From a virus (lineage: Duplodnaviria; Heunggongvirae; Uroviricota; Caudoviricetes): a DNA stretch of 37,205 nucleotides. Of this stretch, positions 3,295 through 5,871 are shown in pieces. The position numbers were made by a program, and so were the translations under genes. Location: the IMG/VR virus record IMGVR_UViG_2721755652_000006; one strand, written 5' to 3'. The notes beneath the pieces are model-generated. The model did no database searches, was not told where the DNA came from, and saw nothing but the letters and a program-made list of their open reading frames with translations. The number at the start of each line of letters is the position of its first letter. Within the stretch, counting starts at the first letter, position 1.

Positions 3295-3361
3295 TGAAAC
3301 AGGTGAGTTGAGTTCAAACTGTAGTACAATTCTCTCCAGTTTGAACAGGAAAGAATATGTT

Positions 3362-3694
3362 ATGAACCCTTATATTTATCTTGGTGGTGCAATACTTGCA
3401 GAGGTCATTGGTACAACCTTAATGAAGTTTTCAGAAGGTTTTACACGGTTATGGCCATCTGTTGGTACAATTATTTGTTATTGTGCATCATTCTGGTTAT
3501 TAGCTCAGACGCTGGCTTATATTCCTACAGGGATTGCTTATGCTATCTGGTCAGGAGTCGGTATTGTCCTGATTAGCTTACTATCATGGGGGTTTTTCGG
3601 CCAACGGCTGGACCTGCCAGCCGTTATAGGCATGATGTTGATTTGTGCCGGTGTGTTGGTTATTAATTTATTGTCACGAAGCACACCACATTAA
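3362..3694 (+). CDS. emrE: Small multidrug resistance efflux transporter EmrE
   Basis: 110-aa product starting MNPYIYLGGAILAEVIGTTLMKFSEGFTRLWPSVGTIICY… matches E. coli EmrE; four TM segments; an in-frame upstream extension (3308) is probably not translated. Confidence 0.9.
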   Translation: MNPYIYLGGAILAEVIGTTLMKFSEGFTRLWPSVGTIICYCASFWLLAQTLAYIPTGIAYAIWSGVGIVLISLLSWGFFGQRLDLPAVIGMMLICAGVLVINLLSRSTPH

Positions 3695-3938
3695 AAATAA
3701 TTTCTTTTAAAAGACTGCAATATGGCGGTTCATATCTTTACATGGGCCGCTTTTGTTAATGTTTTTAGTTTTTGTGTATTCTTTTGTGCCTTCAAGATTA
3801 TTGCGTAAGCAAATTGCAATACGATTATTGTTGTATATTCAAGATAGTGTGATCGTAATTGTCTTTTTAAATAAAAATTAAACAAAAATTATATCTCACC
3901 ACTAAGGTTTATAAAAGCATAAGTTAGCAGGTGTCACC

Positions 3939-5465
3939 ATGAAAAAAGCCATAGCATATATGCGATTTTCATCACCAGGTCAGATGTCTGGCGACTCATT
4001 AAACCGACAGAGAAGACTTATTGCTGAATGGTTAAAGGTAAATAGTGATTATTATCTTGATACCATAACATATGAAGATTTAGGATTAAGTGCATTCAAA
4101 GGAAAGCATGCACAATCAGGAGCTTTTTCGGAATTTTTAGATGCTATAGAGCATGGTTATATATTGCCAGGAACTACATTGTTAGTTGAAAGTCTGGACA
4201 GACTTTCAAGAGAAAAAGTCGGTGAAGCGATTGAACGTCTGAAATTGATTTTGAATCACGGTATTGATGTTATAACTCTTTGCGACAATACAGTCTATAA
4301 TATTGACTCTTTGAATGAGCCATATTCATTAATAAAAGCCATACTTATAGCACAAAGGGCAAATGAAGAAAGCGAGATAAAGTCAAGTCGGGTTAAATTA
4401 TCATGGAAGAAAAAACGGCAGGATGCACTGGAATCAGGTACGATTATGACGGCGTCTTGTCCGAGATGGCTCTCCTTAGATGACAAAAGAACGGCTTTTG
4501 TTCCAGACCCCGACAGGGTGAAAACTATTGAGCTAATTTTTAAACTCAGGATGGAAAGGCGCTCATTGAATGCAATAGCCAAGTATTTAAATGATCATGC
4601 TGTAAAGAATTTCTCAGGAAAAGAAAGTGCATGGGGGCCTTCTGTAATTGAAAAATTATTAGCGAATAAAGCTCTGATAGGTATATGCGTACCTTCATAT
4701 CGTGCAAGAGGGAAAGGGATAAGTGAAATCGCTGGCTATTATCCCAGAGTCATATCAGATGATTTGTTTTACGCTGTACAGGAAATTCGGTTGGCACCTT
4801 TTGGTATTAGCAATAGTAGCAAGAATCCTATGCTAATAAATCTACTTCGAACAGTTATGAAGTGTGAGGCTTGTGGTAATACCATGATTGTTCATGCGGT
4901 ATCTGGAAGTTTGCATGGCTATTATGTTTGTCCGATGAGAAGATTACATCGATGTGACAGGCCATCAATAAAGAGAGATTTGGTTGATTATAATATCATT
5001 AATGAATTGCTTTTTAATTGTAGCAAAATTCAACCAGTTGAAAACAAGAAAGATGCTAATGAAACTTTAGAGTTAAAAATTATTGAGCTTCAGATGAAAA
5101 TTAATAATTTAATCGTTGCATTGTCTGTCGCGCCTGAAGTTACCGCTATAGCAGAGAAAATAAGACTATTAGATAAGGAATTACGAAGAGCTTTGGTATC
5201 ATTGAAAACTTTGAAGAGTAAAGGTGTAAATTCATTCAGTGATTTTTATGCTATTGACTTAACCAGTAAAAATGGACGAGAGTTATGCCGTACACTTGCC
5301 TATAAAATATTCGAAAAAATCATAATTAATACGGATAATAAAACCTGTGATATCTATTTTATGAATGGCATTGTTTTTAAACACTATCCTTTAATGAAAG
5401 TAATATCCGCCCAGCAGGCGATAAGTGCTCTCAAATATATGGTTGATGGTGAGGTTTATTTTTGA
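3939..5465 (+). CDS. ybcK: Large serine recombinase (YbcK-like)
   Basis: 508 aa; N-terminal resolvase-type catalytic motif (AYMRFSSPGQ), long recombinase domain, Cys-rich zinc-ribbon segment (CEACGN…YYVCP…HRC) and C-terminal coiled coil; very AT-rich coding sequence. Confidence 0.82.
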   Translation: MKKAIAYMRFSSPGQMSGDSLNRQRRLIAEWLKVNSDYYLDTITYEDLGLSAFKGKHAQSGAFSEFLDAIEHGYILPGTTLLVESLDRLSREKVGEAIERLKLILNHGIDVITLCDNTVYNIDSLNEPYSLIKAILIAQRANEESEIKSSRVKLSWKKKRQDALESGTIMTASCPRWLSLDDKRTAFVPDPDRVKTIELIFKLRMERRSLNAIAKYLNDHAVKNFSGKESAWGPSVIEKLLANKALIGICVPSYRARGKGISEIAGYYPRVISDDLFYAVQEIRLAPFGISNSSKNPMLINLLRTVMKCEACGNTMIVHAVSGSLHGYYVCPMRRLHRCDRPSIKRDLVDYNIINELLFNCSKIQPVENKKDANETLELKIIELQMKINNLIVALSVAPEVTAIAEKIRLLDKELRRALVSLKTLKSKGVNSFSDFYAIDLTSKNGRELCRTLAYKIFEKIIINTDNKTCDIYFMNGIVFKHYPLMKVISAQQAISALKYMVDGEVYF

Positions 5466-5871
5466 GTAATAATCACTTTTTCAACCGTGCTATGGTATGA
5501 AAGTAAAGTAACTACTATGATATTAACTATCGAGCAAGAATATCCCCAGGCACTCAACAGGGCGCAGGTCAACGTGAATCGGTCATGACACGACACCGAT
5601 TTTGCGGAATCAATGTTGCTTATGAATACAACATCCCGCTTAGTACATGTTCAACACATCAGCAAATTTTGAACTGGGTGTGGCACTTAACTGAAAAAAC
5701 ATGGATGACACAAAATGTTACTCGTCGCTTCATTGAAGTAGCTTGTGGATATCACAAGCTAGACTATCGCCAATGATATTCAATTTTTGATTTTTTAGTA
5801 TCAACCTTCCATAATAATGTCACCGGAGCTTGAACAACTCCGGTGACTTCTGCGCATTTAAGGGGACTTAA

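What the first reader, a model, noticed from the sequence alone, without database searches (positions are those of the whole stretch)
3295..5870. AT-rich cargo island (emrE plus large serine recombinase) between ren and the nin block
emrE, a drug efflux pump, and a 508-aa large serine recombinase lie in visibly AT-rich DNA between GC-richer phage genes, consistent with a secondary insertion into the prophage. The recombinase's substrate sites are unknown. It could mediate excision or inversion of this island or an adjacent segment. A perfect 10-bp inverted repeat (GTTCAAACTG…CAGTTTGAAC, 3312-3347) precedes emrE and a perfect 10-bp inverted repeat (GTCACCGGAG…CTCCGGTGAC, 5819-5847) closes the region; both may be regulatory sites or terminators.
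Basis: partly seen in the sequence, partly recalled or inferred. Interest (0 to 1): 0.5.

Follow-up and report, generated by a model that had tools for sequence, protein, structure and literature searches.

The report
Known emrE–ybcK phage cargo block
This is the already-annotated emrE drug-pump plus ybcK serine-recombinase cargo block that DLP12- and Perceval-type lambda-like phages of E. coli carry between their replication and nin genes; it is a patchwork of separately acquired pieces, not one mobile island, and what the recombinase does is still unknown.

Summary
emrE (3362-3694) and a 508-aa large serine recombinase, ybcK (3939-5465), lie in DNA of 36% GC between about 50% GC phage genes, and both inverted repeats are exact.

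The block is already known. The window is the icd-adjacent defective lambdoid prophage of E. coli O157:H7. The same emrE-ylcJ-ybcK block is annotated in K-12 DLP12 and in active phages such as Perceval and 4A7.

Comparison with relatives places the insert at about 3259/3285-5784. It has three modules: an emrE cassette (3285-3702), a ybcK block (3703-5531) and a remnant (5532-5784).

The "closing" hairpin (5819-5847) is conserved phage backbone, present in phages without the island. The first hairpin belongs to emrE's own leader.

YbcK is intact and under purifying selection (dN/dS 0.07). Its family sits at prophage-host junctions. One E. coli paralog splits mdtG, and the junctions share only TCAG, as expected for a serine integrase.

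This window holds no partner site, so excision or inversion of the island is not supported here.

In Perceval-type phages a 38-nt imperfect direct repeat flanks the 2-kb ybcK block, and precise "empty" sites exist. This leaves open that ybcK is a site-specific cassette.

The parts
2992..3294 (+). ren (left flank, phage backbone). Its last ~12 codons (from ~3259) differ from the island-less relative.
   Evidence: PHROG 142 Ren-like, E 6e-42. Homology to the island-less prophage L003 ends at 3258.
3285..3702 (+). emrE cassette: its own leader plus the emrE CDS. It is also found outside phages.
   Evidence: 92% identical to the fliE-locus emrE of strain EcN over exactly 3285-3702. GC 0.397.
3312..3347 (+). 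Inverted repeat 1 (13-nt arms, one mismatch) in the emrE leader, ending just before the Shine-Dalgarno sequence AGGA.
   Evidence: Conserved with emrE in EcN, with one uncompensated stem change. RNA fold -13.4 kcal/mol, z -1.4, no U-tract.
3362..3694 (+). emrE, a small multidrug resistance (SMR) efflux transporter of 110 aa with Glu14 present.
   Evidence: NCBIfam NF042984, 240 bits against a cutoff of 226; Pfam PF00893, E 2e-35. dN/dS 0.02 against the EcN allele.
3686..3723 (+). Left copy of the 38-nt AT-rich quasi-palindromic site that overlaps the emrE stop codon. It marks the left junction of the ybcK block. There is no second copy in this window.
   Evidence: Junction position relative to EcN and to the empty-site phages. 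Perceval-type phages have a second copy 2073 bp downstream. Only one match in the window.
3724..3751 (+). Terminator-like hairpin followed by a T-run, downstream of emrE.
   Evidence: Found by the terminator scan. RNA fold z -3.6. The stem is kept in the K-12 and Perceval alleles, with one compensatory AU->CG pair and several G-U changes.
3759..3881 (+). ylcJ-like small ORF in the 29% GC emrE-ybcK spacer.
   Evidence: Annotated as a hypothetical protein in the source genome and as ylcJ in K-12.
3849..3877 (+). Counterpart of the K-12 'constitutive' RpoD promoter upstream of ybcK (GTGATC-17-TAAAAA).
   Evidence: Read directly from the sequence. The K-12 site GTGACC-17-TAAAAA carries an H-NS mark in genomic SELEX (PMC3946193). 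K-12 also has a Rho-dependent terminator in this untranslated region (PMC4150792).
3939..5465 (+). ybcK, an intact large serine recombinase of 508 aa.
   Evidence: Three LSR Pfam domains and PHROG 95 integrase, E 7e-120. R9, S11, D87, R88, R91 and four Cys are invariant in 32 homologs. The profile hits SPbeta YokA and the A118 integrase structures. dN/dS 0.07.
3703..5531 (+). ybcK block, the unit shared by all ybcK-bearing lineages. It is truncated on the right in this window.
   Evidence: Breakpoints against EcN, K-12, L005 and L006. Present in 1426 of 5426 complete E. coli genomes.
5532..5784 (+). Remnant cargo holding a 63-aa ORF (5585-5776). It is joined to the ybcK tail by a deletion at a CTATC microhomology.
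   Evidence: PHROG 2559, full-length match, E 4e-51. Junction comparison with L006. This junction type occurs in 307 genomes, the listed examples mostly O157:H7.
5787..5815 (+). Backbone promoter-like element TTGATT-17-CATAAT, upstream of the nin genes.
   Evidence: Promoter scan. Equivalent -35/-10 signals are annotated as putative in phage 82, X92588.
5819..5847 (+). Inverted repeat 2, a conserved backbone hairpin that is not part of the island.
   Evidence: Present in the island-less prophage, DLP12, Perceval-type phages and phage 82. RNA fold -18.3 kcal/mol, z -5.5. All four one-sided substitutions keep G-U pairing on the + strand.
5853..5876 (+). Second backbone hairpin. Its loop GGGA is part of the ribosome-binding site and its 3' arm holds the ylcH-like start codon (5872).
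   Evidence: Perfect 10-bp stems. Other phages form a hairpin here with a different stem sequence. RBS and orf33 are annotated in phage 82.

Best explanation
The region is the known emrE-ylcJ-ybcK accessory (moron) block of DLP12/Perceval-type lambdoid phages. Here it sits in the defective icd-adjacent prophage of E. coli O157:H7. It occupies the ren-ninB junction, which in lambda holds only the tR2 terminator and which in relatives carries alternative cargo.

It is a mosaic of three AT-rich modules with separate histories:
1. An emrE cassette with its own leader, which contains inverted repeat 1. emrE works as a lysogen-benefit gene, exporting cationic drugs and quaternary ammonium compounds.
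2. A ybcK block. It begins at an AT-rich quasi-palindromic site overlapping the emrE stop codon and carries a terminator-like hairpin, a small ORF and a weak promoter. In K-12 the same spacer also has H-NS, Rho and Hfq silencing features. The block encodes an intact large serine recombinase.
3. A truncated remnant with a 63-aa phage ORF.

YbcK belongs to a family whose other members behave as prophage integrases. In this window it is an orphan. It lies inside a prophage that has its own tyrosine integrase next to icd, and no partner site is present. I therefore infer that it does not excise or invert this island.

Shown: gene identity, boundaries, mosaic structure, conserved catalytic residues, purifying selection, and family members at prophage-host junctions. 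Inferred: that YbcK is catalytically active. Its substrates in E. coli are unknown.
For: Identity and known status:
- The query is 100% identical to O157:H7 chromosomes and lies next to icd.
- It is 97% identical to K-12 DLP12 emrE-ylcJ-ybcK.
- The block is present in the active phages Perceval, 4A7, Lambda_4C10, 1W, 3W and Turner. PMC9928086 calls EmrE a Perceval moron.

Boundaries and mosaic structure:
- Breakpoints lie at 3258/3285, 3702, 5504-5531 and 5785.
- Alternative cargo to the right of ybcK is ybcL-ybcM, an alpha/beta hydrolase, or a P22AR-like gene.
- One prophage has no emrE or ybcK in the slot: an inverse autotransporter gene and the hydrolase fill it.
- emrE and ybcK differ in synonymous divergence between the same two phages, 0.038 against 0.130.

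YbcK as an intact recombinase:
- Domain architecture, invariant catalytic residues and zinc-binding Cys, dN/dS 0.07, and PDB relatives SPbeta YokA and A118 Int.

The family as integrases:
- Orthologs of 40-60% identity are the last phage gene before host DNA in Atlantibacter (next to the tmRNA gene), Erwinia, Ewingella, Yersinia rohdei and an uncharacterised genome.
- In Citrobacter pasteurii the ortholog sits at the tail-fibre end, with one SRAP-family gene between it and host purB.
- In four genera the ortholog joins a host gene about 66 bp upstream of its start codon.
- In E. coli FDAARGOS_944 a 43%-identical paralog sits 36 bp from a split mdtG gene. attB, attL and attR share only TCAG, the rebuilt attP has dyad arms TGTrTTTAGGGAAC, and no tyrosine integrase is annotated in the element.

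No partner sites in the window.
Against: An orphan recombinase would be expected to decay, yet ybcK is intact in most of 1426 genomes and in active phages, and it is under strong purifying selection. Some activity on unidentified sites is therefore likely.

In Perceval-type relatives the ybcK block is bounded by a 38-nt imperfect direct repeat, and precise empty sites exist. That fits a mobile cassette better than a passive passenger.

The integrase role of the family rests on gene position and junction anatomy, not on experiment.

Expression of emrE from this particular defective prophage was not examined.
Confidence: 0.8

Rival explanations
1. The ybcK block is, or recently was, a self-integrating mini-cassette. 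In this model YbcK recombines a site on a ~2-kb circle with the AT-rich quasi-palindromic site that overlaps the emrE stop codon. That would resemble an SCC-type element inserted at the 3' end of a conserved gene. In the window the right-hand site has been deleted, so the cassette would be immobilised.
For: - In Perceval-type prophages a 38-nt direct repeat (32/38 identical, with an identical 15-nt core) flanks a 2073-bp unit that contains only ylcJ and ybcK.
- Four IMG/VR phage contigs and 2 of 5426 E. coli genomes carry the exact empty site, emrE-single repeat-hydrolase.
- An independent filled/empty pair, K-12 against EcN, has its left junction at the same core.
- In the Perceval allele the left copy contains a perfect 10-1-10 palindrome, TTAAAAATAA-T-TTATTTTTAA (sequence).
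- YbcK is the only recombinase in the unit and is under purifying selection.
Against: - Serine integrases leave only a 2-bp overlap, as seen for the mdtG paralog, not a 38-nt repeat.
- A repeat with a 15-nt identical core can also be deleted by RecA- or Red-type homologous recombination, which would give the same empty site.
- The predicted circle junction was not found in IMG/VR.
- The apparent crossover point differs between the window and Perceval alleles.
- The phage-type emrE allele is almost always linked to ybcK, with no sign of recent movement.
- Orthologs in other genera have no flanking repeats.
Confidence: 0.2
2. YbcK is a second, Int-independent integrase for the whole lambdoid phage, giving it an alternative chromosomal attachment site.
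For: Family members occupy the integrase position at prophage ends. The gene is kept intact in active phages.
Against: The rows sampled from the 1426 ybcK-bearing genomes cover 94-100% of the block apart from one IS1-truncated copy, and none breaks at a recombination-like point. Every E. coli prophage or phage context inspected has ybcK internal between emrE and the nin genes. No prophage permuted at ybcK was seen. No attP-like dyad was identified next to ybcK.
Confidence: 0.1
3. One reading: emrE plus ybcK form one mobile island bounded by the two hairpins, and the recombinase excises or inverts it.
For: AT-rich composition and the presence of a recombinase gene.
Against: The right hairpin is conserved backbone in island-less phages. 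The left hairpin is part of the emrE leader outside phages as well. The two repeats are unrelated in sequence. emrE and ybcK occur separately. There are no direct or inverted partner repeats at the boundaries.
Confidence: 0.03
4. ybcK is a DNA invertase that controls an adjacent invertible segment, like Gin, Cin or Pin next to tail-fibre genes.
For: Several orthologs lie directly after tail-fibre and tail-fibre-assembly genes.
Against: No inverted repeats of 18 nt or more flank any neighbouring segment in five ortholog loci or in the window. The protein has the large integrase architecture, not the ~190-aa invertase one.
Confidence: 0.02

Closest known systems
emrE-ylcJ-ybcK(-ybcL-ybcM) of cryptic prophage DLP12, E. 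coli K-12 (b0543-b0546)
   Same: Same genes in the same order between ren and ybcN/ninE. About 97% nucleotide identity over 3081-5504. The YbcK proteins differ at 3 codons.
   Different: K-12 has IS3 inserted in renD and carries ybcL-ybcM to the right of ybcK. The window has a 253-bp remnant with a 63-aa ORF instead. The prophages are at different chromosomal sites; the window's is next to icd.
Active lambdoid phages Perceval (E. coli LF82), 4A7, Lambda_4C10, 1W, 3W, D2, Turner, PhiR series
   Same: They carry emrE plus ybcK (97.8-99.6% protein identity) in the same slot. In Perceval the gene is annotated as a large serine recombinase, and EmrE is described as a moron (PMC9928086).
   Different: The Perceval/4A7 group carries a convergent alpha/beta hydrolase and a second copy of the 38-nt site to the right of ybcK. 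The window lacks both.
Large serine integrases (SPbeta SprA/YokA, Listeria A118 Int; by general knowledge also phiC31, Bxb1, TP901-1)
   Same: Resolvase catalytic domain, recombinase domain and zinc ribbon. The conserved Ser, Arg and Asp residues are present. The profile matches the YokA and A118 structures at E 3e-19 and 3e-16.
   Different: No attP/attB pair or directionality factor has been identified. The gene lies inside a phage that already has a tyrosine integrase. No single-sequence match to any solved structure. Far below the NCBIfam XisF cutoff, 47 against 375 bits.
SCC-type elements moved by Ccr large serine recombinases (comparison from general knowledge, not tested here)
   Same: In Perceval-type phages, a recombinase-bearing unit sits at the 3' end of a conserved gene and is flanked by short direct repeats.
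   Different: One recombinase, essentially no cargo, and mobility not demonstrated. The window has only the left repeat copy.
Lambda ren-ninB junction (tR2) and classical morons such as bor and lom
   Same: Same map position. Lambda has 73 bp with a hairpin plus T-run here. Like morons, the insert is AT-rich and followed by a terminator-like hairpin.
   Different: The slot here holds 2.5 kb in three modules. The backbone hairpin at 5819-5847 lacks lambda's U-tract.

Membership tests
Large serine recombinase (serine integrase) | N-terminal resolvase-type catalytic domain with the nucleophilic Ser and conserved Arg/Asp residues | tested here: met
   PF00239, E 5e-19. R9, S11, Q15, D87, R88 and R91 are invariant in 32 homologs.
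Large serine recombinase (serine integrase) | Recombinase domain followed by a zinc-ribbon domain with four Cys and a long C-terminal extension aligned to the coiled-coil region of known integrases | tested here: met
   PF07508 and PF13408. C309, C312, C331 and C339 are invariant. The profile aligns residues 142-471 to SPbeta YokA. The coiled coil itself was not modelled.
Large serine recombinase (serine integrase) | A cognate pair of short att sites with dyad symmetry that recombine at a 2-bp overlap | tested here: inconclusive
   No partner site in the window. A paralog in E. coli FDAARGOS_944 shows such junctions in mdtG, with a TCAG overlap and dyad arms in the rebuilt attP. The only candidate for ybcK is the 38-nt repeat in relatives, which is atypically long.
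Large serine recombinase (serine integrase) | Demonstrated recombination activity, with a directionality factor for excision | not testable with these tools
   No experimental report was found among 35 papers that mention ybcK.
EmrE / SMR efflux transporters | Score above the curated EmrE model cutoff, ~110 aa, four-helix SMR domain, essential Glu14 | tested here: met
   NF042984, 240 bits against cutoff 226; PF00893, E 2e-35. The sequence MNPYIYLGGAILAE has Glu at position 14.
Self-contained mobile genomic island | Boundary direct repeats or att sites, and co-inheritance of all genes as one unit | tested here: not met
   No boundary repeats. The modules occur separately.
Phage moron | Accessory gene set absent from related phages, deviant composition, its own promoter and terminator, expressed in the lysogen | tested here: inconclusive
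   Absence in relatives and AT-richness are met. A terminator-like hairpin follows emrE. An emrE promoter was not demonstrated. Expression is reported for Perceval EmrE in DMEM (PMC9928086) but not for this prophage.
Intrinsic (Rho-independent) terminator, as proposed for the two reported hairpins | G+C-rich stem-loop followed directly by a U-tract on the transcribed strand | tested here: not met
   Inverted repeat 1 has an AT-rich stem followed by AGGAAAG. Inverted repeat 2 has a strong stem, but UUCUGCGC follows it on the + strand, and it was flagged only on the - strand under a lenient tail rule. A different hairpin, 3724-3751, does meet the pattern.
Known RNA families or known defence systems | Match to an Rfam covariance model or a PADLOC profile | tested here: not met
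   Rfam: one chance-level hit only, E 0.59. PADLOC: no hits for YbcK, EmrE or the 63-aa ORF.

The most novel reading that the evidence does not exclude
The ~2-kb ylcJ-ybcK unit is a minimal, single-gene serine-recombinase cassette. It inserts into, and excises from, a specific AT-rich quasi-palindromic site that overlaps the emrE stop codon in lambdoid phages. The 38-nt flanking repeats of Perceval-type phages would be its attL and attR. The rare emrE-hydrolase 'empty' phages would be excision products or unoccupied targets. The O157:H7 copy in this window would be a cassette stranded by deletion of its right-hand site.
Probability: 0.2. Interest if true: 0.55.

Novelty: already known. Interest (0 to 1): 0.3.

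Why it matters
As reported, the finding is an ordinary, already-annotated prophage cargo region, and its value is mainly as a correct annotation.

- emrE is a phage-borne efflux gene present in about a quarter of complete E. coli genomes in this form, and it is carried by phages that still form particles. That is relevant to the spread of tolerance to quaternary ammonium compounds.
- The residual question is why lambdoid phages that already have a tyrosine integrase keep an intact, selected serine integrase.
- If YbcK proves active on the emrE-proximal site, it would be a very small natural serine-recombinase cassette with a defined target.
- The mdtG-type paralog offers a ready-made attP/attB pair from E. 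coli for testing.

Tried and rejected
- Rfam scan of 2800-6400 at permissive E-value: no riboswitch or known RNA near emrE or the hairpins.
- PADLOC scan: no defence-system membership.
- Single-sequence PDB search: nothing. A profile was needed.
- Invertase idea: no inverted repeats of 18 nt or more around five ortholog loci.
- Boundary or partner repeats in the window: only short, chance-level matches.
- Flanking direct repeats around orthologs in Yersinia, Atlantibacter and Pantoea: none convincing.
- Test of whether the ybcK tail is a decayed second SMR gene: tblastn with EmrE found only the last few codons, not a gene remnant.
- Predicted circular-junction sequence in IMG/VR: 0 hits.
- The 5500-5800 remnant and its 63-aa ORF against the phage collection, by DNA and by protein: no match, despite the PHROG hit.
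- LF82 checked as a possible filled fliE locus: it is an ordinary Perceval prophage.
- Downstream sequence conservation between E. coli and Atlantibacter orthologs, as a hint to an att arm: none.
- Upstream-neighbour Pfam census over 18 species: heterogeneous, mostly host genes. It supports a boundary position but gives no single conserved partner gene.
- Structure prediction and the large representative-protein search were not run, because the domain and catalytic-residue evidence was already decisive.
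Full report
**What is in the sequence.** emrE is at 3362-3694 and scores 240 bits against the curated EmrE model (cutoff 226). A 508-aa ORF at 3939-5465 carries the Resolvase, Recombinase and Zn_ribbon_recom domains of a large serine recombinase. The nin-type genes ybcN, ninE, ybcO, rusA, ylcG and Q follow. GC is 0.363 over 3259-5784, against 0.499 for O-P-ren and 0.496 for the nin block. The emrE-ybcK spacer is 0.291. Both perfect 10-bp inverted repeats are at the stated coordinates. 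Four such repeats occur in 3200-6000 where about 0.13 are expected.

**Where it comes from.** The segment 2900-6500 is 100% identical to E. coli O157:H7 chromosomes. There the prophage lies next to icd, with a tyrosine integrase and excisionase at its left end. The replication gene O is truncated and abuts xis. The immunity and early-left regions are therefore missing, and the prophage is defective. The same emrE-ylcJ-ybcK block, about 97% identical, is annotated in K-12 cryptic prophage DLP12. It is also present in phages that still produce particles: Perceval from LF82, 4A7, Lambda_4C10, 1W, 3W, D2, Turner and the PhiR series. In Perceval the gene is annotated 'Large serine recombinase', and a paper on LF82 prophages lists EmrE among Perceval's morons (PMC9928086). 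The ybcK block occurs in 1426 of 5426 complete E. coli genomes. The feature is therefore already known at the annotation level.

**Boundaries and mosaic structure.**
- Pairwise BLAST against an island-less lambdoid prophage shows homology ending at 3258, inside the 3' end of ren, and resuming at 5785.
- Lambda itself has only 73 bp between ren and ninB, holding a hairpin plus T-run (tR2 by general knowledge).
- Module 1, the emrE cassette (3285-3702), is 92% identical to a chromosomal emrE-ybcL-ybcM cluster between fliE and a porin gene in strain EcN. That cluster has no ybcK and no ren.
- Module 2, the ybcK block, starts at 3703. Relative to EcN, K-12 has a 2083-bp insertion holding only ylcJ, ybcK and its tail.
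- To the right of ybcK the lineages differ: ybcL-ybcM in K-12, a convergent alpha/beta hydrolase in Perceval-type phages, and a P22AR-like pseudogene in another type.
- Module 3, 5532-5784, is a remnant that includes a 63-aa ORF matching PHROG 2559 end to end. It is joined to the ybcK tail by a deletion at a CTATC microhomology relative to the P22AR-type arrangement. This junction occurs in 307 genomes, the listed examples mostly O157:H7.
- Another prophage fills the slot with an inverse autotransporter gene plus the hydrolase and has no emrE or ybcK.
- Between the window and the Perceval type, emrE has dS 0.038 and ybcK has dS 0.130, which again points to separate histories.

**The two hairpins.**
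- Inverted repeat 2 (5819-5847) is not an island boundary. It is conserved in the island-less prophage, in DLP12, in Perceval-type phages and in phage 82. In phage 82 it was annotated as a 'possible regulator-binding site', just downstream of a putative promoter and upstream of orf33/ylcH.
- It folds strongly (-18.3 kcal/mol, z -5.5). All four one-sided substitutions seen in six sequences keep G-U pairing on the + strand. This favours an RNA hairpin in the rightward transcript. It lacks a U-tract on that strand.
- A second hairpin (5853-5876) follows, with the ylcH ribosome-binding site in its loop and the start codon in its 3' arm. Other phages form a hairpin there with a different stem sequence.
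- Inverted repeat 1 (3312-3347) belongs to the emrE leader. It is retained, with one uncompensated mismatch, at the non-phage EcN locus. It is AT-rich, only marginally more stable than shuffles (z -1.4), and runs straight into the Shine-Dalgarno sequence. It is therefore not a terminator. An operator or leader role is possible but untested.
Its stem is maintained across alleles with a compensatory change.
- Published K-12 data place an H-NS-marked RpoD promoter (GTGACC-17-TAAAAA; GTGATC-17-TAAAAA at 3849-3877 here) and a Rho-dependent terminator in the emrE-ybcK spacer. They also show polyP-dependent Hfq binding to ybcK DNA. All of this fits xenogeneic silencing of AT-rich DNA (PMC3946193, PMC4150792, PMC10954037).

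**The recombinase.**
- In an alignment of 32 homologs (27-97% identity), R9, S11, Q15, D87, R88, R91 and four zinc-ribbon cysteines are invariant.
- A profile built from that alignment matches the SPbeta YokA/SprA and A118 serine integrase structures. PHROGs classifies the protein as an integrase.
- Between the window and Perceval alleles there are 39 synonymous and 11 non-synonymous differences, giving dN/dS 0.07. The gene is being maintained as a protein.
- No paper among 35 that mention ybcK reports a recombination activity. One reports that overexpression raises sabinene tolerance.

**What the family does elsewhere.**
- Orthologs of 40-60% identity occur across Enterobacterales.
- In Atlantibacter (540 bp from the 3' end of the tmRNA gene), Erwinia, Ewingella, Yersinia rohdei and an uncharacterised genome, the ortholog is the last phage gene between the tail-fibre or moron end and host genes. 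In Citrobacter pasteurii one SRAP-family gene lies between it and host purB.
- In Mixta, Serratia, Leclercia and Rahnella, an identical 66-bp stretch precedes the gene and then gives way to a type II secretion-family host gene.
- In Pantoea dispersa it sits, as in E. coli, between the replication and Q genes of a lambdoid prophage.
- The clearest case is E. coli FDAARGOS_944. A 43%-identical paralog lies 36 bp from a truncated mdtG, at the left end of a degraded prophage whose other end abuts the rest of mdtG. No tyrosine integrase is annotated inside the element.
- Comparison with an intact mdtG shows that attB, attL and attR share only TCAG. The rebuilt attP has imperfect dyad arms, TGTATTTAGGGAAC ... 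GGGTTCCTAAACACA. This is the anatomy expected for serine integrases and not for tyrosine integrases.
- I therefore regard the YbcK family as prophage serine integrases. This rests on position and junction structure, not on experiment.

**What YbcK can do in this window.**
- The prophage here is bounded by its own tyrosine integrase at icd, and ybcK is internal.
- The window contains no second copy of the site at the emrE-ybcK junction, and no long direct or inverted repeats around the island.
- Five ortholog loci show no invertible-segment repeats either.
- Excision or inversion of this island by YbcK is therefore not supported.

**An unresolved lead from relatives.**
- In Perceval-type prophages a 38-nt imperfect direct repeat (32/38 identical) flanks a 2073-bp unit. 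The left copy overlaps the emrE stop codon, and the unit contains only ylcJ, ybcK and its tail.
- I predicted the corresponding empty site and found it exactly in four IMG/VR phage contigs and in 2 of 5426 E. coli genomes. There, emrE, a single repeat copy and the hydrolase are joined directly. The predicted circle junction was not found.
- The K-12 against EcN comparison places its left junction at the same core. In the Perceval allele the left copy contains a perfect 10-1-10 palindrome.
- This is compatible with a site-specific ybcK cassette, but equally with homologous deletion between the repeats. A 38-nt repeat is atypical for serine integrases, and the apparent crossover differs between alleles. 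I give the cassette model about 0.2.

**Verdict.** It is wrong on the unit, the boundaries and the role of the hairpins. The region is an already-annotated mosaic moron slot. The only open biology is the substrate and role of an intact, selected serine integrase inside phages that already have a tyrosine integrase.

Noticed in passing
window 1133-2297: The prophage is defective. xis (1133-1369, - strand) is followed directly by an N-terminally truncated replication gene O (from ~1473/1509). The exo-to-cII early-left and immunity regions are therefore missing. Any transcription of emrE or ybcK here cannot come from an N-antiterminated pR transcript.
   Followed up: partly
window 5853-5876: A second conserved hairpin lies right after inverted repeat 2. 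Its loop (GGGA) is part of the ylcH ribosome-binding site and its 3' arm contains the ylcH start codon (5872). Other phages have a different stem sequence that still pairs, which suggests translational control of ylcH/ybcN.
   Followed up: partly
L107 (E. coli FDAARGOS_944, NZ_CP065613.1) 19981-36401: A degraded ~15-kb prophage splits mdtG. A YbcK-family serine recombinase lies 36 bp from the left junction. attB, attL and attR share only TCAG, and the rebuilt attP has dyad arms TGTrTTTAGGGAAC. A small 183-aa serine recombinase sits at the other end. This gives a usable natural attP/attB pair.
   Followed up: yes
L002 (E. coli EcN) 6001-9521: Between fliE and yedK, strain EcN carries emrE-ybcL-ybcM without ybcK. 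A 73%-identical piece of the phage ylcH-upstream hairpin region and an nmpC-like porin gene follow. This looks like an old, heavily reduced DLP12-like prophage remnant. The ~91%-identity emrE allele seen here accounts for most E. coli emrE matches.
   Followed up: partly
L005 1787-1824 and 3860-3897; L109-L112: A 38-nt imperfect direct repeat flanks the ybcK block in Perceval-type phages, and exact single-copy 'empty' sites occur in four IMG/VR contigs and in E. coli Rb-50.
   Followed up: yes
L042-L045 ~6935-7000: In Mixta, Serratia, Leclercia and Rahnella an identical ~66-bp stretch precedes a 39%-identical YbcK homolog and then abuts a host type II secretion-family gene. This suggests one conserved integration site across four genera.
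   Followed up: partly
L016 (Citrobacter koseri) 5145-8530: A YbcK homolog sits divergently next to a 555-aa protein with a faint Shufflon_N hit, on a contig with TraD and MobA/MobL genes. This is a plasmid or conjugative-element context rather than a prophage.
   Followed up: no
window 4186-4209: A perfect 11-bp palindrome with a 2-nt spacer (TTGAAAGTCTG-GA-CAGACTTTCAA) lies inside the ybcK coding sequence.
   Followed up: no
window 1747-1784: Overlapping palindromic repeats (TTTACCTGA...GGTAAA) inside gene O look like lambda-type origin iterons.
   Followed up: no
window 35084-35479: Three tandem copies of a 132-nt unit (62-77% identity to the first copy), in the late or tail-fibre part of the window.
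   Followed up: no
window 11791-11847: A 26-nt-arm inverted repeat (85% complementary, 5-nt loop), the longest hairpin in the window, lies about 6 kb downstream of the island.
   Followed up: no
NZ_CP038360.1 and NZ_AP026104.1 (hits H1, H89): In some O157:H7 strains ybcK is interrupted by an IS1203 (IS3-family) insertion, so the gene is dispensable in those hosts.
   Followed up: no
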